A stretch of 63,809 bases of DNA, filler included, from Collodictyon triciliatum (lineage: Eukaryota): assembly GCA_043381765.1 (NCBI GenBank). It is 8 parts of 8 records of this genome, joined end to end, with 100 filler letters (N's around TTAATTAATTAA, not from the genome) between each part and the next. Parts side by side here need not be neighbours in the genome. Positions count along the whole stretch, not along the records: positions 57,901 to 63,809 come from JBHJMP010003444.1; 7 more parts are not named here. One strand, 5' to 3'. Position 1 is the first letter of the stretch. Every line of letters begins with the position of its first letter. Of the stretch, positions 8,375 to 63,809 are shown piece by piece. A program made the position numbers and the translations under genes. The notes below the pieces were generated by a model. The model saw only the letters and a list, made by a program, of their open reading frames with translations, had not been told where the DNA came from and ran no database searches.

Positions 8375-8572
8375 ATGTCTTCTCGGATACTCTCTTCTCG
8401 GCTACTATGCGCCTTGTTTCTGATCGGAGCAGGTAAATCCCAGTTTTCCATTTTCCCGACTAATGCTTACAGGAAACAAAATGATTTGAAGACAAGTAGT
8501 CGAGATCAAGTCTGGCCATTTTTTTCTCTTCACTTTTCCACGCATCTATGTGTCTATACATCTATGTATATA

Positions 8573-8655
<83 letters not shown>

Positions 8656-8688
8656 CTATCTATATATCTATCTATCTATCTATCTATA

Positions 8689-8767
<79 letters not shown>

Positions 8768-11700
8768 ACCGATACCTTTATCTGAAAGCATCCGAATAGC
8801 ATGAAAATTAGGGTTTAAAAATCGCAAATATTTAGTGCCGCATGGTTGTTATTTCTTAATACTAAAAAGATAATGAGTTGTATTTTTCCCTGCAGTATAT
8901 GGACGTGATAGTTTTTATGACCAAATCTACACATTCTACTCTGGATTTCCTTGCGTCAGATTGTTGGATGATTCCCTGGGCATTGTTGGGTGCACAAGTA
9001 ACATTCAATATCTATATATTACATGCTTTATAACATTCTCAGTAGAGATTATTTCATCTCTTTATATTTATTGTACCACCCCTATCGTCATTTATGATAA
9101 CATATTTCGTCCGGATTTTTCAAATATTAATACACAATCCACTATGAAGCCGGAAAAGGTGGAGTAGTTGGTGGGCTACATCCTATAGAAGAACAGGGTG
9201 GATTGACCAGTTTCCTTCGTAATCCGCCAAGCGATGACACAATTGTTCTCCTTGAATCTACACTTTTTTCAGAGTTTGTAGCCAAACTGTCCTGTTTTAT
9301 ATTCCTTTTAAAACCGATGTGAGATAAATTTAACAAAGAGCAAGATTGTGCGAAAAAATCAAACGCCAGGCCAACATATCGAAATATATAGCTCAGCGAT
9401 CAATTCTCTCATCGCCACTGGGTCTGTGAAAGGCATCCTTACAACAAAGGGACCCGCACCAGCAAATGGATATTCTGTGGCTGCAAAGAATCCGCTGCAG
9501 AAGTGGAGTTTGCACCCCAGCGTAAACTATGATTGGAATCCTCAGGTAATATATAATTAATATATCGCGCAACTTTGTTATAGTGATAATTCAAAACTTA
9601 GAAACACATACATACATACATACATACATACATACATACATACATACATACATACNNNNNNNNNNACATACATACATACATACATACATACATACATACA
9701 TACATACATACATACGTACGTACGTACGTACGTACAAAAAGTATTAAGTTGCGGAAACAATGAAGGGAAATGGAGCAATGTACCAAACATTTTCTGTTCC
9801 AATTTACGGCTTAAACGAGAACGAGACACTTATTTTCAAACAGGTTTACCAGAATCATCGATGATGTATCTGTTTATAACAATTCTGAGTGGATATACCC
9901 CAATAAAAATTCGTAGTGCCTATATGGTTAATATCAAAGAATATATATTTACAGCGTATAAAAATAAAATAATACACCTAGAAAGCATTGGAAAATACAA
10001 ATGGATCGAAGTATCCCAGATGGGGTGCTGAATTGACCACATTCATGTTTGCAACCCATGATTCTGAGACATGTCTAAGACGAGGTTTTTCTATTACATT
10101 TTAGCTATTTACCAATTTAAAGTGTTCCTCCAGGACTCCGAGTGTGACTGTTTATTTTATTTTATTTTAATTTTAAGTCTCGAACAAAGTCATAAACCGA
10201 GCAACATAGCGCAAAAAGGACTGGAATGGAAACGTCTCGCTTTTAATACAAATGTGTATTGAAGTGACTGATGGCCACTTTAATCCAAGTTAGTTGTACT
10301 GACGATACAATTTAATCGATAGATCAGTGTCTCCCAATTGGAGGTCGTAATGTATGGAGTTCATTTGGCTCAAATATTGAGACTTCGAAAGATATAATAT
10401 TAGTATCGGTAATATAATTATTCTTACATCCTATAAATTCTATAATGGTGATTCTCTATCCACTCTGTATGGATAAATCGTGACCACTTTTATTTTCCCT
10501 TTTCTTCTCTTTTCTTCTCTTTTTATCTCTTTTTATCTCTTTTTATCTCTTTTTATCTCTTTTTATCTCTTTTTATCTCTTTTTATCTCTTTTTATCTCT
10601 TTTTATCTCTTTTTATCTCTTTTCTCTGATGTCTGTTTTTGTTTTCTGTTTTTTCTAAAAAAATTTTTTTTCACTCTTTTACTTCTTCACTCTCATTTTC
10701 TTTTCATTTTTAAAAGGCCACGATGGATAGCAACAGCTTCTTTCATGATGACACACTTGGTGCCAGTGCATACTTGTCTGGCGTGGTCTCCCTTTTGGGC
10801 GCGGTCGAGGCACTCACCAATGTTTGTTGGTTATCACTTTCATATGAATTTACACCATTGTTTTTAGGTCCTTAATTTCCCCTCTTTTTCTTTTTTCTTT
10901 TTCTTTTTCTTTTTCTTTTTCTTTTTCTTTTTCTTTTTCTTTTTCTTTTTCTTTTTCTTTATCTTTATCTTCCCTAGGAGAATACGTTCTTGTGATTTGT
11001 ATTTAACAGACAAAAGCAACATGCCCTTTCATTCTTAACTTCACAATTGAATTATAACGTTCAAGATCACAAACATTGACGCCGCACCAAGACAGCTTGT
11101 TGTTTCATTATTCCAGGTATATTCTGATTTACCTCTTCGTATGTTTCGCTGGCTATGCTTACTTATCCCATCCATCAATTTAAGGGAGAAATATGGGATT
11201 ATATCGGGTCGATGAGTTTTGTGAAAGAGGCTACGAAACCTGGAAGTAAAGAACCTGCCGCCAAGTTGGGATTTTCACGCATAAAACATATGGTTGATGT
11301 ATCTCAAGTCGGTTAGTTGCATCGCTTTTTTTTTTTTCCGAGAAAAAGCTCCTCAAAATATATTACTTATAGATGACATTTTAAGAGGACATCTTGAAAT
11401 ATTAAACAGGTGAAATTCTTTTACATTTAAAATAGGTAATCCAAGAAATAATGGAGAGTTTTTCATTCATTTTGACCGACTGTCTCAGTCGCATAACTCG
11501 AAAACTAGAGAACTAATCGAGAAGTTTACATTCAACTCTGCCCCTACGCCATCTGTAAGATGAGATTAGTTTATCATATTGTGATTAGAAGTCTTAAATC
11601 AGCATACTCGAAAAGAAATCTCTTATATATTGACTTGGATATGATTTAGTAATAGGTATTGGTATTTTTTTCTCTTTTCCTTTTCCTATCACTTTTCCAT

Positions 11701-14464: not shown

Positions 14465-15069
<605 letters not shown>

Positions 15070-32163: not shown

Positions 32164-32263
32164 NNNNNNNNNNNNNNNNNNNNNNNNNNNNNNNNNNNNN
32201 NNNNNNNTTAATTAATTAANNNNNNNNNNNNNNNNNNNNNNNNNNNNNNNNNNNNNNNNNNNN
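32164..32263. other. Artificial contig linker
   Basis: N44-TTAATTAATTAA-N44. Confidence 0.98.
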
Positions 32264-32420
32264 TACATACATACATACATACATACATACATACATACAT
32301 ACATACATACATACATACATACATACATACATACATACATACATACATACATACATACATACATACATACATACATACATACAAGTCCAGTTTAAAGTCC
32401 AGGGCCCTCGAAGCGGAGCC

Positions 32421-46823: not shown

Positions 46824-48998
46824 TTACTTTCAAAAAAAATTAACTAATTTATTGTACGGTAAATGAAAAAAAATTACCATTGCAGAACTTCAAATTTGAC
46901 CAAGGATATAAAAAAAGATACGTTTTTAGAGTAATGCCTGATGAAAGTGATAGGGATTAAATAACTTATGCCACCCAAAAACACTGTTGATTAGGGTTTA
47001 GCTACCTTTTTAACTTTAGAACCATCCAGCTTCAGAGGGGCTCTGGCTTGCGTTTGTTCAAAATGATTTCTGTATAAAATTGGCTTTATTGGTTCCACTC
47101 TAAGTATAATTTCTCATTTCCAATTACAAGAAATAGAAAATAAATAGTGCTGATAAGCAAGAAATCATTCTTTACTCACGGATTAGACAGACACTGAAGG
47201 AAGAAGGTAAATACATAAGATAAATATCTTCAATATGAATTATAGTTACATCATCTTCGATATTCTATGCTCCAAACTGTCTATGCGAGCTTCGCGCATA
47301 TGATTTGAAGCTGCGCTGTGTCGTCGTAAATCCTCCGAATCTTCATAGAAAGATGGCTCAGGCACACGCACCTGATTCGGACTAGGTTTGGAATTCAGTG
47401 CGGGTGAGAGTGAATGTGAAGGATGATTAATAGATGGGGTATATTGCTGGGACGGTCCTTGAGTAACCTTTGTGAAATTTGCATTAATATCAGCTGTTTA
47501 TCTTAAAATAGCAAATAAATCAGATATGTGATTAAAACGCTGTTCAATACTATTCGAGTTGGTGTTTCATGGTATATTATTTAAGCCAACAAAAAATATA
47601 TCATGACTATAAACACAAATCAGTTAAGTTGCAGATTCAAGAATGATATATAAAAGACTTACATGGGTCTTTGGGTGTGGATATGCCTCGGATTTAGTTG
47701 ATGTAGAGATTTGAGGAGAGTGATGAGCTTGGTAAAAATGAGATGGAATGTGGACTTGAGATTTCGGTAAAATTGTCTCTGATGTTGGTGGTTCGCTGCA
47801 AATTGTAGAGTTTGCAAGTAGGCCAGGTCAATATATATTTCCGTGTCTGGAAAATGGAAGGAAATCTCAAATGTCTCATGCTTTGCCAGAATATTGGCGA
47901 GAGCTTGTTTACCTTTTGTCCGATAATTCCAATTGGGAGGCAATGGTATCTTGAACAGGCTCGGGTGAGATTGTGAAGGTTTTATATTTTTGTATGAATT
48001 CAAGTACATTGATTGATGGACTAGGTAAAACAAAAACAAAAACAAAAACAAAAACAAAAACAAAAACAAAAACAAAAACAAAAACAAAAACAAAAACAAA
48101 AACAAAAACAAAAACAAAAACAAAAACAAAAATAAAAGCAAAAAACGAAGCAAAACAAAACAAAAGAAAATTCAAATTGTCTTTCTACTTTCTATTTTTA
48201 ATCCACGAATGTATGAAAATTTCCAAAGAAAGGATATTGAGATATTTGACAAATTCTTGAATGGCCGAGTTGACAGTAGCTGACTCTTGATTAAAGAAAA
48301 AGGAGAAAATATAATGTCAGGCTTTAAAGTATTCTCAAATTTTTGCATAACTTTCAAAAATACAAAAATTGAAAATAATAACGCTTTTAAAAGAGAAATA
48401 AATCAGTAATGGTAATGAACAATTATATGATGATAATAGCACATAGTAAACTTCTGGTAGACAAACCCGATTTCAAAGCTCCATGGCGGTCTCGGCAGTC
48501 TAGATATATCAAGGATGGAAGTGTCGCATAAACGACTGACCTGTACTGGCGAGCTTTGCATATAGGATTTGAATGAGCAGTACTTTTTGTCTCATTCCCT
48601 TCACGTTCGAATATAATCTCTTCAAGGAACTATTTCGTGAAATATCGCGTAAGCTTGATCAAAATATTTAACACCGTTTTGTAAAGAATGCATTTCGTTG
48701 TCAGAGTATAAAGTATTCTAATACTTCAACAGTCTAAAAATTTTCTTTGAGAGTATGAAGAGCAAACTTGCACTTTTTAGGAAATAATCTATCGTTAAGA
48801 AAATAAAACCTTGAAGAGTGTCACATGGATGATTTCATCAATATTAGTGATAGTGTTTCCCTTGAGATCGATGCTTCTCAGGGGGTGGTTTGGAACCAGG
48901 CCGAGTGGGCGGAACCCAGACAAGCTTGATATTAGGTTATATGACAAGTTTATCTTGCGAAGTGAAACCAGGCGATCCAGACCAGTTATATTTTTAAT
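41082..48998 (-). CDS. LRRCC1: LRR and coiled-coil centriolar protein LRRCC1/CLERC (VFL1-like); 5'-truncated, 3' end uncertain
   Basis: GLDRLVSLRKINLSYNLISSLSGFRPLG..LRSIDLKGN..|..NPMCKARQYRSVVYATLPSLIYLDC (LRR + LRRcap), RIDSLEHRISK, and a long coiled coil including LQVKDKLLEDQSDSIIQMK. Confidence 0.85.
42125..42700. repeat. (AAAAAGAAACC)n-type degenerate minisatellite in an LRRCC1 intron
   Basis: Directly visible. Confidence 0.9.
47965..48237 (-). other. Candidate U12-type AT-AC intron in LRRCC1 (273 nt)
   Basis: 5' site A|ATATCCTTTC, branch-like ACCTTCAC followed by AATCTCAC|CC; removal gives in-frame EFVKYL-T-EPVQDT. Confidence 0.75.
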
Positions 48999-49235
48999 CT
49001 GAGTTTTGAATTTTAGATGGTTTTGAGGTCCGTGAGCAGTGAAATATAAAAATAGAGCATAATTACATGAAACTGTCTCCATTATTTGCTCTATGTACAT
49101 AAGTTACTCTATGCGGCCATGAGCTTAATATAAGGGGGGAAACTTGTAATCGAATAAAGGAAAAAGTACAGAGAAAGAAAAAAAAAAAAAAAAAAGGGGA
49201 AGGGAGAGAGAAAAAAAAAAAAGAAAAAAAAAAAA

Positions 49236-52401: not shown

Positions 52402-55400
52402 TTAAGCTAATGCTCTCTGTTTCCACTCAGTTGCTTTTTCAGTGTCCTTCTTAACATTCCATCCATTTTCATAGCATTCAGCCATTATTTGAGCCTGGAA
52501 CTTTGTGAACTTACCCTGTTTACAATGGGCAACAAAATCTGTATCAAAGGAAGCAGCACCAATTGAAAGCAACAGGGATTTGTTGAATGGACTCAATCCT
52601 GTGACACTTCTAATTTGAATGTTCCCACCTTCCAAATATCTTGGGGTGATAATCTGGACTGTCTCTGCATCCTGGATTCTGTTAGTGTCCGTCATGTTCA
52701 TCGCTTCTGTTGTTTCGTTGCAAATTGCGATGATTCTGTCAGGAGCTTCTTCTTCGATGAGGAATTTTGCTTCGGCGTAAGTAGCTACCCGTTTTTGTAA
52801 ATGATGCAGTTTGTTTTCTAAAGCTATGTCCCAAATATATACGGTTCTATCTTTACTTCCAGAAACCAGCCAATATTCGCCATTCGGTCCTTGAATACTG
52901 CAAACACTATTCACATACTCTACATGACCTTCTAATTTTTTAATTTGGTTTCCTGTGGCTACATCCCAAATACATATTGTTTTATCACCACTTCCAGAAG
53001 CCAACCAATTTTCACCATTCGGTCCTTGAATGCTGCAGACTATTTTGACATAGTCTGTGTGTCCTTCTAATGTTTTGATTAAGTTTCCTGTGGCCACATC
53101 CCAAATACGTATGGTTATGTCATCACTTCCAGTAGCCAACCAATTTTCACCATTTGGTCCTTGGATACTGCAAACACTGGTGACCCAATTTGTATGGCCC
53201 TTAAGTAATTTGATTTGATTTCCTGTGGTTAAATCCCAAATACGTACAGTATTATCGCCACTCGTAGACGCTAACCAGTTTTCACCATTCGGTCCTTGAA
53301 TACAGCAAACGCTTAGTACAAAATATGTGTGTCCTTCTAATATTTTAGTCAGGTTTCCAGAAGCAATATCCCAAATGCATATCATGTTATCATCGCTTCC
53401 TGAAGCCAACCAGTTTTCACCATTCGGTCCTTGAATACTGCATATACTTCTGACATTACTTGTGTGCCCTTCTAGTCTTTTGACTTGGTTTCCAGAGGCA
53501 ATATCCCAAATACGTAGTGATTTGTCATCACCCCCAGAAGCTATCCAATTTTCGCCGTTCGGTCCTTGAATGCTGCAAATACATCTGACATTACTTGTGT
53601 GCCCTTCTAGTCTTTTGACTTGGTTTCCAGAGGCAATATCCCAAATACGCAGTGATTTGTCATCACCCCCAGAAGCTATCCAATTTTCGCCGTTCGGTCC
53701 CTGAACACTGCAAACACTTCTGATAGATTCCGTATGACCATCTAATTTACCATAAGGAATTCCGAATTTTACATAGTTCATATTTGCATTATCAAAAACA
53801 CAATCACCAAGCATCGAATTCGTGAAATCAACGCCATCCAAGTTGGCGCCAATGAAGTCCGCACCATCAAGGATTGAATTACTGAGATTTGCATTTGGAA
53901 TTTTAATGTTTGATAGATCCATTCCAGCAAACGAAACATTCATGAAATTCAAAAGTGTGATTGCATCGGATGCAACCTTTGATTTGCTTTCGTCATTCTT
54001 TGACATGCAGACAATCCTAAATAATGATGCAACGATTTGCTCACGATTCCATTCTTCATCCACCTTTGAATGGAGCAAAGTTTCCTGGATGAATTTCCTG
54101 ATTCTTGATAAATCGGCAGGCTCTTTGTTGATTCCGATTTCTTTTGAATGGACGGACACGTATTCACATGAATTCAATGTTCTGGGATGAATCCACCCGA
54201 TTTTATCAGCGAATCTGTCTTTCATCTCAGTCCAGAATTCAACAGCTTCTTTGTGCTGCTTCAGTTCCTTGTAAATCTTGTTGATTTCTTCACAGCTGTT
54301 CCATATTCCAGGATAATCCATAGAATAAAGTTTACTGAATAAATGAATCAGTGTTTTGTAAAGTTGAATGACGGCTTCGTGCTCTTTCTTGTCTTTCATT
54401 AATAAAATAATTTTTTCTACATGATGTGTATCCTTCAGCGACGTGATAGTTTTTGTTTCTTTTCTGATAATTGCTGCCCTCTGGAAGCAATCAGCGCACT
54501 GAGCTGAGCTAATAAAAATTTTAAAATTAAAACTGATTTTTATCATATTTCTGGATAGGTTAAATTTTCGAATATTCTTAAGGAATAAAAAATTACCTTT
54601 GGAACTCAAAATTTATCATCCCAACATTTTCAAGGGAAGTCGCATAATCGACGTGCATTTCTCCTAATGTCCTCTTTCGAATTTCAAGGGTCTTCGTGTA
54701 GGCTTCCAAAGAACCCTTTAATCTGGACAGAATGTGGGGAGTGTGTATAATATTTCTAAATTCACAGGGTCAAACTGAAAAATAAATAGGACTAGTTCGT
54801 TTGAAAAGTGTTACTCTTTCAAGTCATGGCTGATATCTCCAATCGCATCATAGCAGGACACAACATTCGGATGATTTTCTCCAAGGGTGGATGTGAAAAT
54901 ATCCAATGATTGATTCAGTAAATGTAAGGCCTCCGTTTTTCTGTACAATGAGCAATTACTGAATATATTTGAGTAGAAAAAAATATGTAGATTTTGTTTT
55001 TGAAAAAAAAGAAAAAATAACTTTCCGCAGGCCAGCTGAACGTTTGCAATAAACTGAATTGTTGAGGCAACAGATGCGTGATTGGCCCCCAGCGATTTTT
55101 CAAGAATTGATTTCGCTTTTTTGTACTTTTCGACGGATTCTTCAAACCTTAGTTGTTCAGTTAAATACATAATTGTATAAAATAGTAAAATTTTGGATAC
55201 AATGAACAATGAACAATGAACAATGAACAATGAACAATGAACAATGAACAATGAACAATGAACAATGAACAATGAACAATGAACAATGAACAATGAACAA
55301 TGAACGATGAACAATGAACAATGAACAATGAACAATGAACAATGAACAATGAACAATGAACAACCAAGAACTAAAAACAACGAACAATCCAATATTTGAA

Positions 55401-57671
55401 TACAAAATTAATAATTGAGTTATTTTTCAAAAAAAAAATTACTTTCCCTCAGCCAGAGATACATGACCATAGTTCTGATACGACATTGCTACGAAAGGGT
55501 GTTCATCACCAGCTTTCTTTTGGCGGATTTCCATAGCTTTTTTGTATTCAGCCTTGGCCTGCTCAATCCTTGATGCATGTTTTTCAGTATTAATAAAAAA
55601 AAAATATCAAAAATTTGTATAAGAGAAAGGATATGAACGTAAAAGCACGGTAGAAACACCAAAAGATGACCAAAAATTACTTTGACTGCTTCACGTAGAT
55701 GTCTCCGAAGCGGTCGTAAGATTGAGCTACTTGCAAGTCGTTCTCACCCAGCTGTTCAATTCGCAATTGCAACGATTTCTTATATTCTTCAAATGCTTTA
55801 TCAATTCTGTATTGAAATCAAATAAGAATTGATGTTCTGGCTGATTTACCATCGATTACATTCATATAATAGACACTGGTCTTACTTATTCTGTGTCTGA
55901 TATATTATTCCCATCTCTTCATAAATGGTGGAAATATGCTGATAATTATCCCTATTTTTCTCCAGTAAATCCAGGCATTTCTTATAGTGGATCATGGATT
56001 CGGTAAAGCTGTTCAGGTATAGATTTAGAGAATTTTTCCGCAGTAAAACATAATGGTTATTTCATAGCCCCTAATTAAGATTTATTTTATTATATTTACT
56101 TTTGGATATTCTTGTAGACACGACCAAGATTCAAATAGTCAGCAGCTTTCGAATCTACGCATAGATAAATACAAATATTTTAATATAATTTATTTGTTGA
56201 CAATAGGTACATTTGAAACAGTAAGGAATATACCCTCTATTTGATGCTTTACAAGACGCGTATTAAGGATTGATAACAAAAACGAGTTTTCGAATGATTC
56301 CAGGAAAAATCCAACAAGTAATTCTCCCACATTATCCAAGGACTGAAAAAAAAAAAGCCGTATTGACTTATTACTAATAACTTCAACATGCAATCGTTTT
56401 TTTTCTTAAGGAAGTAAATAATTAATGCTCAACTTTTTTAAATTTTTTCATACTTTTGCCAGAGTTCCGTATGCATCTTTATAGTTTGCTGCTCCACTTG
56501 CGTTTATTACCCTCCAGCATGTAAAGAATTCGTAGCGATAGCGACCACCAAGCATGACACTGATTACCTAAGAATATTCGTTAGGATAATGCCAATTGAT
56601 AAACTTATGATGGCTTTCATAATATAAAGAAATTACATGTGTTTGCTTCATGTATTCAACAAGCAAGTCAAGCGAATTGCCATTCAGAAGTTGGTAGCAT
56701 ATCTCGGCAACAAGCTCCTCATCGGCATCAGCAGCCTCAGCGTATTGGCCAAACAGCCATTTTCCGTATTTTTCGTGCGTTTTTTCGATTTCTTGCTTTT
56801 CGGAGAAGTAGAATTTTTTGGTGGTCTCCAAAAGTAGCTGGTGAAAGTACATATATCTATCGATTTGGATTCAGATTGGGATATTGATAAACAATTTTTT
56901 AAAATGGTAATATATAGCCGCCGTGATTGAAAAAGAAATTAATTTTAAAAACCTTCCATTTCGAACAAAAAGTGATTCCATCAGAGTGAAAAAGAAGGAC
57001 TTCCTGTTCGATGATATACGGACAAGTGAGTTTTATGGGAATAATGGATTATGCAAGAAATATTTTTTAGGTGAAATAAAGCTCCACCATTCGGTTAGCT
57101 CGAATCTTGTACCAATCGTATCTTTCATGTACTTGTCCAAATCTCCTTCACTCAAACCGATGCGAGAAACAAAGAGCGCCTTCATTGAAGCGGCAACGTA
57201 CTCTACATCTGAAAATCGCGATGTGGGGATATTACATGATAATCAAAAAAAATCACAAGGTCAAGTATCACTGCCGACTTACCTTCGTTGTCAAACTTCA
57301 ATTGCCAGCGATGGATAATAAGAGTATAAAGCTCGATGACACCATGTGTCGAAAGTAGAATTCCCAATTCTTCATCAAGTTTCTCGTAAACACCGAAAAC
57401 CCTGACTTCATCCAGAATGATCCGAAGATAGAGTGGATGTCCTAAATATAAAATACATAAGTTTATTATTTAATACTGCATGAAAGAATTTTAATCGAAA
57501 CATATATAATGATGCCCCACCAGTATCTTTCAAGTCAGCCAGAATCATCCCAACTTGCTTTTCATTCAAGGATTTGTCATAGCGAAGGAGGAATGATTCG
57601 ACGCTATCCATCACTTCACCTTCAGACAACTTGGTGACAGGAATCGGCTGCAAACCGCCTTTCTCGGCAGA
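52402..57671 (-). CDS. NPHP3/TEP1-like STAND (NACHT-associated helical region) + TPR + pentapeptide repeat + 7xWD40 + Sel1-like protein; 5'-truncated
   Basis: LLRYDKSLNEKQV..TGHPLYLRIILDEVRVFGVYEKL..SRIGLSE..YFHQLL (the P-loop itself is off-contig), kinesin-light-chain-type TPRs (LGENHPNVVSCYDAIG), ASDAITLLN..ANLSNSILDGADF, and seven 45-aa GH..WD repeats. Confidence 0.9.
52828..53748 (-). repeat. Seven tandem 135-bp coding WD40 repeats of high identity
   Basis: The motif QGPNGENW recurs every 135 bp (e.g. GGTCC at 53561 and 53696). Confidence 0.97.
55200..55360. repeat. (AATGAAC)n heptamer, intronic
   Basis: Directly visible. Confidence 0.95.
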
Positions 57672-60611: not shown

Positions 60612-63519
60612 TTACGGGCATTTCTTCTCCACAATTCCTTTTCCATGTTCCTTTTTAAAAAAAAAACAATAATAATTCAGCAAGCCAATTTTCCAAGTAA
60701 TGGTGATATATCAGAATGATTCGAGTACAAGCATAATTTATTGCGATGGAAAAAGCAAAAACAAATACATCAATTCGATATCTAACAAATCTCTGATTGA
60801 TTCCGATAACAGCCGGAAAAATAACGACAATAACAATAATTGACCACGAATTTAGTTAATAATTTATCAACCGCATATTCCAATTGCGAAATCCACATCT
60901 GATGGAAGGAACCCAGCGACCCAAGAATAGAACCACCCAGCCAGGAACCAAAGCGACGCTCTGGATTCGTGGCCACGTTTACTTTGATGCGATTCATCTA
61001 CAAATGCGACGTATGGAAGAATCAAATAATTTAATCTAAGATACTACATGAATGAGAACAGCCTTGTCAAGAGAAAAAAGGAAGTGATAGGGAAATTAAT
61101 TTGGACTCTTGCTTAGTATTCTCATTTGATTGCGACCAATTATCGATTAAATGCTTGCGAATGACAATACTCTAATTAGAAATGTATGTACCTGACTCGA
61201 TGTCAATGACTCTGAAAGTTCTTTATTCAATCGGGCTTGGAACCCATTAAACAGGGTCGAGCCGCCTGGCAGGCATAATTGAATCCGGTTAGTATTGTTT
61301 GAATGCAATGTGGCACATGCATCATAATGAAAAGACAAAGAAACAGGGCATTTTTTGGGCGTGCAGAAAAAAAGTGATGTAGCATTTACCGAAGCCAAAA
61401 CAATAATCATGATTGATTTTAATTTCAAACATATAGTACGTTTACAAGATGCAGTGGAATAATTAGTCCATCAGAACGAACAATACTGACCTGTCAATAC
61501 AATATTGGAAGTCAACTCGCGGCGGATGTCTGCATCGCACAGACCGATGCTTTTGGCCGCCATTTCTTGTATGGAAAGGCGCGGTCCCTCCCAACCTTGC
61601 ATTGTACTCTACATGAAACCGTGTTATGGGTGTTGTGAAATACCCAAGCTGAAATTTACATATTGTTGTGTTATTTTTTCCATTTTCTTTCTTTCATTCC
61701 TATATTATTGAAAGAATGATAAAGAATGCAAGAAAGATAAAGATAGGATTAGCGATGATGATTTTTAGAGTGAGATTTACTGGGTAATATGCAGGGTTGA
61801 ACATAATTTCTGGAATTGAGAATCGCTCTGTTCCAATATCAACGAATCCGCCTTGAGAAAGAAATAAAATTAAATAAAGAAATTAAATAGGCCGAAGGCA
61901 GAAAAATTAAGTATGTTCTCTTTCCTTCAAAATCTCTGGGGAACATTACTCATTGTATGCAAATATCTTGAACGTTACACTTATTGCCGAACAATATTAG
62001 AAGAAATATCCTGTGACAAAAGATACAGAAGATGGGAATAGTACAAACCGTCTGGAAGTTCATATGACAGATTTGGAATATTTGCGTGTTCTCTGGGATA
62101 TTTAGGAATTTTTTTAGTTATTTTAAATAACCTTATTTTAGTCGAAAAATTACTCACTTTAGATCCGTTTAAAAAAAAGGTAATTTTAACAAACTTCAGT
62201 TGTATGAATTTTTTGATGAGAGAAAAAGTTTGGACATAATATAAAGATAAGAAGAAGAGAAGACACCTTTCGCTGAAAATAGTCTCAGATACACGAAGAT
62301 AGCTTTCCTTGATATCTCTGACGATATCCTGAATTAAATGTAAGTGAAATGAGACACAAAAAAGAGAGGTGCAAGAAGTAGACTTACCTCTTTTTAAAAT
62401 TTAATAGCTAAAAAACCAAAAAAAATAAGTGTAAACTAAGACTTTTTTTAATGATAAGATGAGCGAATGTAATTCAATTTATATTTAAAACACCAGTTTC
62501 CGAAATAGCTCATAGCTTTTGTGCGTATTCTGAACATTTGTGGCTATTGCCTGCGAAAAAAAAAAATATATGGTAACTAAAGTATTTGATGATTCATGTC
62601 CTCATCGGTTTGAATTGCAAACGATGTGTAGTAAATAAGACCTAGGTCAACAGAAACTTCACGAATAAACTCCATTACAGAAAAACCAAACCTTCCCAGC
62701 TTTTTTCGTGAACATGTATGATGGTCTGATTTGATAGCCTTTTGACTCTAATTTGTAGAGGAGGACTAATTGGTGTGTAAAATGGCATCAGTAATTATGG
62801 ATTTGAGATCCTTCCCCTTTCTCTTTAAAGATTGGCGATTCTAGAGGACATGATGAATGTAAAGGACCATGAATATCCTGATTTAAACATTTCATTGGCA
62901 TGTATTGAGAGGCATCCGAGGAAACAATCCTTGATGTTAGTGACCATGTAAAACTCATCATTAAAGTAACACTGACCTTTGTTAATGTCGTCTCCACCAA
63001 AATTTGTTTTCAGGGATGCTGAAAGTAGTCAAAAATTAGATTGATTTTTAAGAAGCTGTGTATGGATTATATTTCACGCATGCCACAAACATACATCGGA
63101 CGAGGGGATAGCCATCATGCACAGGAACAACACTCGTGTTTGAACCCCCGCATTCGATTACAAGCGCGGTTGACTTACCATTTCCAAAAGTAATGCGTTG
63201 TTAAGAAAAGAAATAATGTGGTGGATGATAACCATGAAAAACAAACTATACTTCAGCCATGGTTAAATATATATCTAGGATAATCGCAATTTTTTCTCGA
63301 TTCGATAATATTGTTTTGTCATAGACAGTTTCCTTGTGTAGAGTATAAACTTCATAAAATATCAACAAAAAGGGATATGCCGACAAAACGGCACTTTTGC
63401 ACAGGAAAAATGCCGGGACTTTGAATTTCTCAAACATGTACTCCGTGAGAGTCTCCCGGGCTTTTTTGTTGCTGAAATTTGATTCGGAGATCAGGACTGG
63501 GTGCAGTGTAGAATCCAAT
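60612..63519 (-). CDS. ARP4: Nuclear actin-related protein 4 (ACTL6/BAF53), 5'-truncated
   Basis: [108 protein letters not shown]. Confidence 0.96.
63190..63378 (-). other. U12-type AT-AC intron in ARP4 (189 nt)
   Basis: 5' site GC|ATATCCCTTTT, branch site CTTTTCTTAAC ending 10 nt before the 3' end ..ATTAC|TTTT; splicing restores conserved AVLSA-FGNGKST. Confidence 0.93.
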
Positions 63520-63809
63520 CTAAGTACAAAGCATTTAACGAGTTGTATACAAATTATGCGTTGATGAGGATATGATACTTTGTAAGTCAGACTGCTCTTA
63601 AGTTAACGCATTTGCGAATTATTCAGTCATTGTATTTATCAAGGAAAATGAAGATGTTCGAGTATTGAATATAAGCACTTGTCCATTCTTTTTTCTTCTT
63701 TTTTCTTCTTTTTTCTTCTTTTTTCTTCTTTTTCTTCTTTTTTCTTCTTTTTTCTTCTTTTTTCTTCTTTTTTCTTCTTTTTTCTTCTTTTTTCTTCTTT
63801 TTATTTCTT

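What the first reader, a model, noticed from the sequence alone, without database searches (positions are those of the whole stretch)
63190..63378. AT-AC minor-spliceosome (U12) intron in ARP4, implying this protist retains a minor spliceosome
Seen: the conserved Arp4 segment [14 protein letters not shown] is restored by removing a 189-nt intron that starts ATATCCCTTTT, has TTTTCTTAAC 10 nt from its end, and ends AC. I found no GT-AG solution at this junction. Known: RTATCCTT with a TCCTTAAC branch site close to the 3' site defines U12-type introns, and many protist lineages have lost them. The donor has a variant +7 C. Inference: a functional U11/U12/U4atac/U6atac system exists, and standard gene predictors will mis-model this gene. 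From unverified memory, vertebrate ACTL6 genes also carry a minor intron, so the position could be ancient.
Basis: partly seen in the sequence, partly recalled or inferred. Interest (0 to 1): 0.8.

Follow-up and report, generated by a model that had tools for sequence, protein, structure and literature searches.

The report
U12-type AT-AC intron in ARP4
One intron of this organism's ARP4 (chromatin-remodelling actin-related protein) gene carries the rare AT-AC "minor spliceosome" signals, at the same codon where animal ARP4 genes seem to keep such an intron, so it is a real but familiar kind of feature.

Summary
On the minus strand, 63378..63190 is a 189-nt intron. It starts ATATCCCTTTTT, has TTTTCTTAAC ending 10 nt before its 3' end, and ends AC. 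Removing it joins AVLS-A-FGNGKST with no residue gained or lost against Pfam Actin and human ACTL6A.

I scored 1297 in-frame junctions with an ARP4 profile. This 189-nt deletion scores best, and the best GT-AG solution ranks 432nd. Both motifs falling at a junction fixed by homology has a chance of about 2e-7. The other 10 introns of the gene are ordinary GT-AG.

Nine unrelated database ARP4/ACTL6 predictions read "A-Y-P" straight past the same codon. That is what GC|RTATCC encodes. The published human and mouse ACTL6A minor-intron donors (AGC|GTATCC, GGC|GTATCC) fit the same split Ala codon. The position is probably ancient.

- **Not tested:** actual splicing, and whether minor snRNAs or proteins exist. 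The window holds no snRNA.
- **Not resolved:** the organism. It lies outside the opisthokont and green-lineage (plant and green-alga) ARP4 clades.

Verdict: a genuine U12-type intron, a new member of a known kind, of moderate interest.

The parts
63190..63378 (-). 189-nt AT-AC, U12-type intron (phase 2, splits an Ala codon GC|T)
   Evidence: Sequence read. It is the best-scoring junction of 1297. It is collinear with Pfam Actin and human ACTL6A.
63367..63378 (-). 5' splice site ATATCCCTTTTT (one mismatch, +7 C, to RTATCCTTT)
   Evidence: mismatch count 1. The other 10 introns of the gene have 3-7 mismatches.
63200..63209 (-). Branch-site motif TTTTCTTAAC. The presumed branch A at 63201 is 11 nt from the 3' end.
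   Evidence: 1 mismatch to TCCTTAAC, distance 11. That A63201 is the branch point is inferred, not shown.
63190..63191 (-). 3' terminal AC
63379..63554 (-). Upstream ARP4 exon (...[58 protein letters not shown] + GC). Its 5' limit is uncertain.
   Evidence: tblastn with P0001 aligns from 63554. Pfam Actin E=3e-10. ACTL6A E=1e-11. The profile supports it only from VLRLD onward.
63095..63189 (-). Downstream ARP4 exon (T + [31 protein letters not shown] + T)
   Evidence: Pfam Actin E=4.7e-9. Arp4 and ACTL6A chains are the best PDB matches.
60612..63554 (-). Partial ARP4/ACTL6-type gene: 12 exons, 11 introns, 325 codons plus TAA. About 100 N-terminal codons are not found in the window.
   Evidence: The model gives 978 nt with no internal stop. 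It is 45% identical over 335 aa to P0151 (E=7e-99, reaching its last residue) and 62% over 207 aa to P0001. The exons were read.

Best explanation
The segment is a genuine U12-type (minor-class) AT-AC intron in a partial, apparently intact ARP4/ACTL6-type gene. It sits in phase 2 inside the Ala codon of the conserved AVL(S/T)-A-F(G/A)NG motif.

Inferred mechanism, from established knowledge of minor splicing:
- U11 pairs with the ATATCC donor.
- U12 pairs with the TTCTTAAC branch site and bulges the A 11 nt from the 3' end.
- U4atac/U6atac.U5 then replace U11 and catalyse removal, joining GC to T.

The intron most likely descends from an ancestral U12 intron at this codon. The same intron is also kept, as GT-AG U12-type, in vertebrate ACTL6A.

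Shown here: the signals, their exact placement at the homology-defined junction, and the ordinary GT-AG nature of the gene's other 10 introns. Inferred: that it is spliced there, by a minor spliceosome that the organism therefore still has.
For: - Termini and motifs were read directly.
- The junction is exactly collinear with Pfam Actin (92-135 | 137-166) and ACTL6A (114-157 | 160-188), with one residue supplied by the split codon.
- It is the best of 1297 junctions, and the best GT-AG is 18.6 bits worse at rank 432.
- The joint chance of both motifs at the fixed junction is about 2e-7.
- The gene model is intact over 12 exons and aligns to the C-terminus of homologues at E=7e-99.
- The closest relative, P0001, a spliced transcript-derived protein, reads AVLSAFANGK across the site.
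- 9 of 216 database homologues with the anchor motif continue ...AVL[ST][AS]-Y-P..., the translation of GC|RTATCC. Six of those 9 have F or L next, as RTATCCTTT predicts.
- Supplement file 1 of PMC6717393 gives the ACTL6A minor-intron donor as AGC|GTATCCTTG (human) and GGC|GTATCCTTA (mouse), with branch site TTTTCCTTAATG. This means a GC-ending exon with a wobble-like difference at -3, as expected for Thr158-Ala159 split in phase 2.
Against: - No transcript evidence for any junction was available.
- No U11, U12, U4atac or U6atac gene lies in the window at the gathering threshold or at E<=1. A 64-kb window would rarely hold one, so this says little.
- The donor has C at +7 and the branch motif has T for C at one position, so neither is a perfect consensus.
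- No other homology-supported U12 intron is in the window, and U12-like motif pairs are at chance level.
- The codon-level position of the human ACTL6A minor intron was inferred from a 12-mer and from read-through proteins, not mapped on the gene.
- PMC11347168 (passages) reports species with minor-like introns but no detectable minor snRNAs. Such signals alone therefore do not prove the machinery.
Confidence: 0.85

Rival explanations
1. The AT-AC intron is removed by the major (U2-type) spliceosome, or by some lineage-specific variant. The organism has lost the minor snRNAs.
For: U2-type AT-AC introns exist (established knowledge). PMC11347168 (passages) reports minor or minor-like introns in alveolates and in Reticulomyxa without detectable minor snRNAs. 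The window has no snRNA gene. The donor is not a perfect consensus (+7 C).
Against: The donor ATATCC and a TTCTTAAC motif 11 nt from the 3' end are the U12 signature. They are not the ATAAGT-like signature of U2-type AT-AC introns. The gene's 10 other introns use quite different, loose GTNNGT-like donors. The same codon shows RTATCC-type read-through in 9 other database homologues.
Confidence: 0.06
2. The gene is spliced at a nearby GT-AG or GC-AG pair instead (63351/63173, 63390/63173 or 63381/63173). The resulting protein lacks or replaces part of the AVLSAFGNGK segment.
For: These in-frame, stop-free pairs exist. A standard gene finder would choose one of them.
Against: They rank 432nd, 986th and 649th of 1297 and score 18.6 to 35 bits lower. 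They delete residues that match ACTL6A/Arp4 on both sides of the junction. It would be an unexplained coincidence for 'intronic' DNA to encode VLSA and FGNGK in frame.
Confidence: 0.03
3. The locus is a pseudogene or an assembly artefact, so the intron need not be spliced at all.
For: The 5' part of the gene could not be modelled. The window ends in a microsatellite about 120 nt upstream of the last recognisable coding piece. A W..ILEH-like piece lies in another frame, which may mean an indel error. The window has 1090 N.
Against: 325 codons over 12 exons are open. They end at the family's usual ...KKCP stop and align along their whole length to homologues. All 11 introns have recognised termini.
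Confidence: 0.04

Closest known systems
U12-type (minor-class) AT-AC introns, as defined in animals, plants, some fungi and some protists
   Same: AT-AC termini. A donor matching [A/G]TATCCTT in 8 of 9 positions. A branch motif matching TCCTTAAC in 7 of 8 positions, 11 nt from the 3' end. A single such intron among many U2-type introns in a housekeeping gene.
   Different: C instead of T at +7 and T instead of C in the branch motif. Splicing and the snRNAs were not observed.
The minor intron of vertebrate ACTL6A/Actl6a (BAF53a), listed in the supplements of PMC6717393 and PMC11347168
   Same: An orthologous gene. The donor exon ends in GC (AGC| in human, GGC| in mouse), as the split Ala codon does here (GGC|). 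The branch motif TTTTCCTTAATG compares with TTTTCTTAAC here. Vertebrate-type database proteins read TA-Y-P past the same codon.
   Different: The vertebrate intron is GT-AG type (GTATCC) and 1749 nt (human) or 2517 nt (mouse) long. This one is AT-AC and 189 nt. The identity of the codon is inferred, not mapped.
U2-type AT-AC introns
   Same: The terminal dinucleotides.
   Different: Those have major-class donor and branch signals. This one has the extended U12 donor and a 3'-proximal U12 branch motif.
The expanded, altered U12 system of Physarum polycephalum (bioRxiv 10.1101/2020.10.12.336362, parts 1-2 of 4 read)
   Same: A repeat-littered, intron-rich protist genome with AT-AC introns that annotation pipelines discard.
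   Different: The window shows no excess of RTATCYTT donors (20 against 15.0 +/- 3.6) or of donor plus TTTGA pairs (12 against 11.6 +/- 3.3). This intron uses the classical CTTAAC branch motif. Only 1 of the gene's 11 introns is U12-like.

Membership tests
U12-type (minor spliceosome) intron | Extended 5' splice site [A/G]TATCCTT starting at +1 | tested here: met
   ATATCCCTT matches 8 of 9 positions, with the mismatch at +7. Only 58 of 124430 window positions match this well.
U12-type (minor spliceosome) intron | Branch-site motif TCCTT[A/G]A[C/T] close to the 3' splice site (about 10-15 nt) | tested here: met
   TTCTTAAC matches 7 of 8 positions, with the branch A 11 nt from the 3' end.
U12-type (minor spliceosome) intron | Termini AT-AC or GT-AG | tested here: met
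   AT...AC. This is the only placement with known termini among the four top-scoring ones.
U12-type (minor spliceosome) intron | Excision at these sites in RNA | not testable with these tools
   No transcript data were available. The junction is inferred from protein collinearity.
U12-type (minor spliceosome) intron | U11, U12, U4atac and U6atac snRNAs and minor-specific proteins present in the genome | not testable with these tools
   Only this window was available. Rfam found no snRNA at the gathering threshold (0 hits) or at E<=1, where 10 hits were all miRNA models on microsatellites.
U12-type (minor spliceosome) intron | Position shared with U12 introns of orthologues | tested here: met
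   9 of 216 homologues read A/S-Y-P past the same codon. The ACTL6A donor 12-mers are consistent with this. The evidence is indirect, because no orthologous genomic DNA was examined.
ARP4 / ACTL6 (BAF53) actin-related protein | Actin fold with best similarity to Arp4/ACTL6 rather than to actin or other ARPs | tested here: met
   The exons hit Pfam Actin. ACTL6A and Arp4 chains are the top PDB matches, 16 bits above actin for the upstream exon. The model aligns to ARP4-named proteins at 41-47% identity and groups inside the ARP4 tree.
ARP4 / ACTL6 (BAF53) actin-related protein | Complete coding sequence | tested here: not met
   About 100 N-terminal residues are absent from the window, and nothing upstream of 63554 could be modelled.

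The most novel reading that the evidence does not exclude
The organism belongs to a lineage in which surveys found no minor spliceosome. Candidates are an alveolate relative, which is where the ARP4 tree weakly places it, or a rhizarian. This conserved AT-AC intron in an essential gene would then be the first solid evidence that the lineage still runs U12 splicing, possibly with snRNAs too diverged for current models. The +7 C donor would hint at co-evolved U11/U6atac.
Probability: 0.15. Interest if true: 0.7.

Novelty: new member of a known kind. Interest (0 to 1): 0.4.

Why it matters
A U12 intron in an essential chromatin-remodelling gene means the organism almost certainly keeps the whole minor spliceosome, a system lost many times in eukaryote evolution. 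A single well-supported intron is therefore a cheap marker of retention in a poorly sampled lineage.

The same codon shows a U12-type donor in vertebrate-type and in several non-vertebrate ARP4 predictions. That makes this one of the candidate U12 introns dating back to early eukaryotes.

Practically, it shows that standard GT-AG-only gene finders truncate or garble ARP4 at this junction. Nine such faulty models are already in public protein collections.

Tried and rejected
- searching the word-indexed protein collection with the 46-aa exon (longer proteins) found nothing. One of three searches was lost.
- Names for the representative hits could not be had that way.
- a search with P0001 gave names but only distant relatives (at most 44-45% identity). 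P0001 itself is an unnamed EukProt Trinity transcript.
- a search with the 736-aa WD40 ORF, meant to find same-genome paralogues with an organism name, gave only generic WD40 proteins and one unnamed EukProt transcript (P0271).
- a literature search for the TSA prefix of P0151 found nothing.
- the protein atlas gave only generic actin clusters.
- the ARP4 tree is the quick version, because the careful search did not finish. It leaves the lineage unresolved.
- **Physarum idea:** I considered that the window is Physarum or has a Physarum-like expanded U12 system. I rejected this for lack of any motif excess and because no protein of this genome appears in the collections.
- **Second U12 intron upstream:** I considered that GTATCATATCCTC at about 63581-63569 marks a second U12 intron just upstream. 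No junction there is supported.
- **Donor inside intron 7:** I considered GTATCTTTT at 62026 as an alternative donor. I rejected it because it would add 7 residues absent from all homologues.
- **Literature:** searches for ARP4 or ACTL6A together with U12 or minor intron found no paper discussing this intron's conservation outside vertebrates. The supplements of bioRxiv preprints could not be seen.

Full report
**What is there.** The finding lies in a gene on the minus strand. Read 5' to 3' on that strand, 63378..63190 is 189 nt. It begins ATATCCCTTTTT and ends TTTTCTTAACAACGCATTAC. The upstream exon ends ...GCC GTT TTG TCG GC. The downstream exon starts T TTT GGA AAT GGT AAG. Removing the segment therefore gives A-V-L-S-A-F-G-N-G-K, with the Ala codon split after its second base (phase 2). 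TTTTCTTAAC occupies 63209-63200, so 10 nt follow it. The second A of TTAAC (63201) is 11 nt from the last intron base.

**Is the junction right?** The two flanking exons were tested separately, because joined sequence could not be handed to the search tools.

- Against Pfam Actin, the upstream exon covers profile positions 92-135 and the downstream exon 137-166. Exactly one position is left for the split codon.
- Against solved structures, the best matches are ACTL6A and Arp4 chains. In human ACTL6A (7vdv_N) the upstream exon aligns to 114-157 and the downstream exon to 160-188. The exon's last residue then corresponds to 158 and the split Ala to 159.

I then made an unbiased test. Every donor from 63331 to 63410 was combined with every acceptor from 63151 to 63260, regardless of dinucleotides. 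This gave 1297 in-frame, stop-free products, which were scored with a profile built from 26 ARP4 homologues.

- The top score (115.9 bits) is shared by the four indistinguishable placements of this same 189-nt deletion.
- Only one of the four has termini of a known intron class, AT-AC.
- The best GT-AG junction ranks 432nd (97.3 bits). The other GT-AG ranks 986th, and the two GC-AG junctions rank 649th and 1041st. All of them destroy the conserved FGNGK or VLSA residues.

**More than chance?** Loose U12-like donor and branch pairs are as common in the window as in shuffled sequence: 15 against 13.6 +/- 3.7. A motif hit alone would mean nothing. At a position fixed by homology the picture is different.

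- A donor within one mismatch of RTATCCTTT occurs at 58 of 124430 window positions.
- An AC/AG end with a branch motif within one mismatch of TCCTTAAC, 9-15 nt upstream, occurs at 15 of 124430.
- Together that is 5.6e-8, or 2.2e-7 allowing four placements.

**The gene.** Using the closest homologues as guides, I modelled 12 exons from 63554 to 60612. They give 978 nt: 325 codons and a TAA, with no internal stop and the family's usual ...VEKKCP end. The model is 45% identical over 335 aa to P0151 (E=7e-99, reaching that protein's last residue). It is 62% identical over 207 aa to P0001.

Of the 11 introns, 10 are GT-AG, 76-225 nt long, with loose GTNNGT-like donors. They differ from the U12 donor consensus at 3-7 of 9 positions. 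One of them carries a TACTAAC box. The AT-AC intron is the single odd one, as is typical for genes with a minor intron.

About 100 N-terminal codons are missing. The window ends in an (AAGAAGAAAAA)n microsatellite, and nothing upstream of 63554 could be modelled with confidence.

**The same codon in other organisms.** When an ORF-based predictor reads from this exon into an intron that starts [A/G]TATCC, the translation is GC[A/G]-TAT-CCN, which is Ala-Tyr-Pro. I scanned the 268 proteins returned. Of these, 216 carry the anchor motif ending in ...AVL.

- 179 continue normally by a simple pattern. That class is approximate, and at least two doubtful rows fall in it.
- 9 continue [S/T]-[A/S]-Y-P: P0024, P0032, P0051, P0060, P0067, P0070, P0105, P0131 and P0143. 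In 6 of the 9 the next residue is F or L, as RTATCCTTT predicts.
- 11 stop within three residues of the junction.
- 17 are 'other'. Most of these are actins or variant ARP4s that simply run on. One (P0071) reads A-Y-V, as a GTATGT donor would give.

The nine include vertebrate-type sequences (PAFFLCKTAVLTA-YP), probable invertebrate ones (P0060, P0105) and clearly non-animal ones (P0051, P0067). The evidence is therefore indirect, but Y-P at two fixed positions in 9 sequences is far beyond chance.

**Published vertebrate data.**

- Supplement file 1 of PMC6717393 lists the ACTL6A/Actl6a minor intron with donor 12-mers AGC|GTATCCTTG (human) and GGC|GTATCCTTA (mouse), and branch site TTTTCCTTAATG.
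- The supplement of PMC11347168 classes human chr3:179574468-179576216 and mouse chr3:32715514-32718030 as 'minor'.
- Passages of PMC13192996 name Actl6a among minor-intron genes.

An exon ending in GC, with an A/G difference at -3 between two nearly identical proteins, is what a phase-2 split of Ala159 after Thr158 (ACA/ACG) would give. The window has GGC| at the same place. I could not map the human coordinates onto codons, so identity of position is very likely but not proven.

**How it most likely works.** From established knowledge of minor splicing, U11 recognises the ATATCC donor. U12 pairs with TTCTTAAC and bulges the branch A 11 nt from the 3' end. The U4atac/U6atac.U5 tri-snRNP then completes the reaction. 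None of this was observed here. ARP4 is a core subunit of chromatin remodellers, and the reading frame is otherwise intact. The intron must therefore be removed precisely, which is the basis for inferring a working minor spliceosome.

The window has no snRNA gene. There were 0 hits at Rfam gathering thresholds. At E<=1 there were 10 hits, all miRNA models lying on microsatellites. This neither supports nor weakens the inference.

**Which organism?** This is unresolved.

- No protein encoded by the window appears in the large collections. The nearest ARP4 (P0001) and the only full-length relative of the window's WD40 gene (P0271) are unnamed EukProt Trinity transcripts.
- In a quick maximum-likelihood tree of 34 ARP4 sequences (the careful search did not finish), the window pairs with P0001 (SH-aLRT 100).
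- The pair lies outside the opisthokont clade (99) and the green-lineage clade, a plant plus green-alga sequences (99).
- It sits with weak support (80) beside P0151 plus ciliates. Long branches make that placement unreliable.

'Protist' is therefore reasonable. The window shows no Physarum-like excess of U12 signals: RTATCYTT occurs 20 times against 15.0 +/- 3.6 expected, and donor plus TTTGA pairs 12 times against 11.6 +/- 3.3.

**What the surveys say.**

- Passages of PMC10639083 report minor introns in Amoebozoa, several non-Dikarya fungi (Glomeromycotina, Zoopagomycota) and Phytophthora. They report no evidence in Alveolata, Discoba or Ochrophyta.
- Passages of PMC11347168 report minor-like introns in Reticulomyxa and in alveolates, but no minor snRNAs in rhizarians.

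If this organism falls in one of those 'empty' groups, the intron would matter much more. I put that at about 15%.

**Verdict.** This is a real U12-type AT-AC intron in ARP4, probably a survivor of an ancient intron shared with animal ACTL6A. The kind of feature is well known, so it counts as a new member of a known kind. What was added here:

- a rigorous junction test;
- the evidence for deep conservation of the position;
- the observation that public protein sets already contain mis-modelled ARP4s at this junction.

The interest is moderate (0.4).

Noticed in passing
window 63555-63809, minus strand: The 5' continuation of ARP4 cannot be modelled. A piece resembling the conserved W-D...ILEH helix (MDKCLYSILEHLHF, about 63686-63645) lies in a different frame from an overlapping EW... 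reading, and all three frames close before 63600. No GT donor precedes the stops. A GTATCATATCCTC string at about 63581-63569 looks U12-like but fits no supported junction. There may be a 1-nt assembly error or another non-canonical intron. The window ends in an (AAGAAGAAAAA)n repeat.
   Followed up: partly
window 47404-48237, minus strand: A candidate second AT-AC intron. A perfect ATATCCTTT at 48237 pairs with TCCTTCAC 13 nt before an AC at 47404. The 834 nt between them include a (GTTTTT)n microsatellite. It lies downstream of an LRR-encoding exon (48798-49103). No homology pins the junction, so it may be chance.
   Followed up: partly
proteins P0024, P0032, P0051, P0060, P0067, P0070, P0105, P0131, P0143 (public collections): Public ARP4/ACTL6 gene predictions read into the intron at this same codon (...A-Y-P...). 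P0070 also reads through the preceding intron.
   Followed up: partly
window 63019-63094, minus strand (ARP4 intron 2): This 76-nt GT-AG intron (GTATGTTTG...) has TTTGA with its A 11 nt from the 3' end. That is the placement described for the non-canonical Physarum U12 branch motif, but its donor is not U12-like (3 mismatches).
   Followed up: no
window 24835-26221 and 27463-28815, minus strand: Two tandem paralogous genes. Each has a long open frame followed by an HMG-box (Pfam E=2.5e-7 and 2.3e-6).
   Followed up: no
window 52405-55407, minus strand: A 736-aa open frame with pentapeptide-like repeats and seven WD40 repeats that carry an unusual QGPNGENW insert. TPR-encoding sequence lies upstream (54814-55407). 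The only hit covering 91% of it is an unnamed EukProt transcript (P0271, 40% identity). Cyanobacterial proteins and proteins of fungal endosymbionts (Glomeribacter, Mycoavidus) cover about 65%.
   Followed up: partly
window 8539-8678, 9610-9742, 32260-32332: Sub-threshold Rfam hits to mir-297, mir-466, mir-3149 and similar models fall on TATG/TACA-type microsatellites. They are repeat artefacts, not miRNA genes.
   Followed up: yes
whole window: GC is 35.4% and there are 1090 N in several gaps. Purine- or pyrimidine-rich hexanucleotide-type microsatellites are very abundant between sparse genes. Other recognisable coding pieces are PP2C (14468-14827, minus), the nicastrin small lobe (9312-9557, plus) and LRR (48798-49103, minus).
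   Followed up: no
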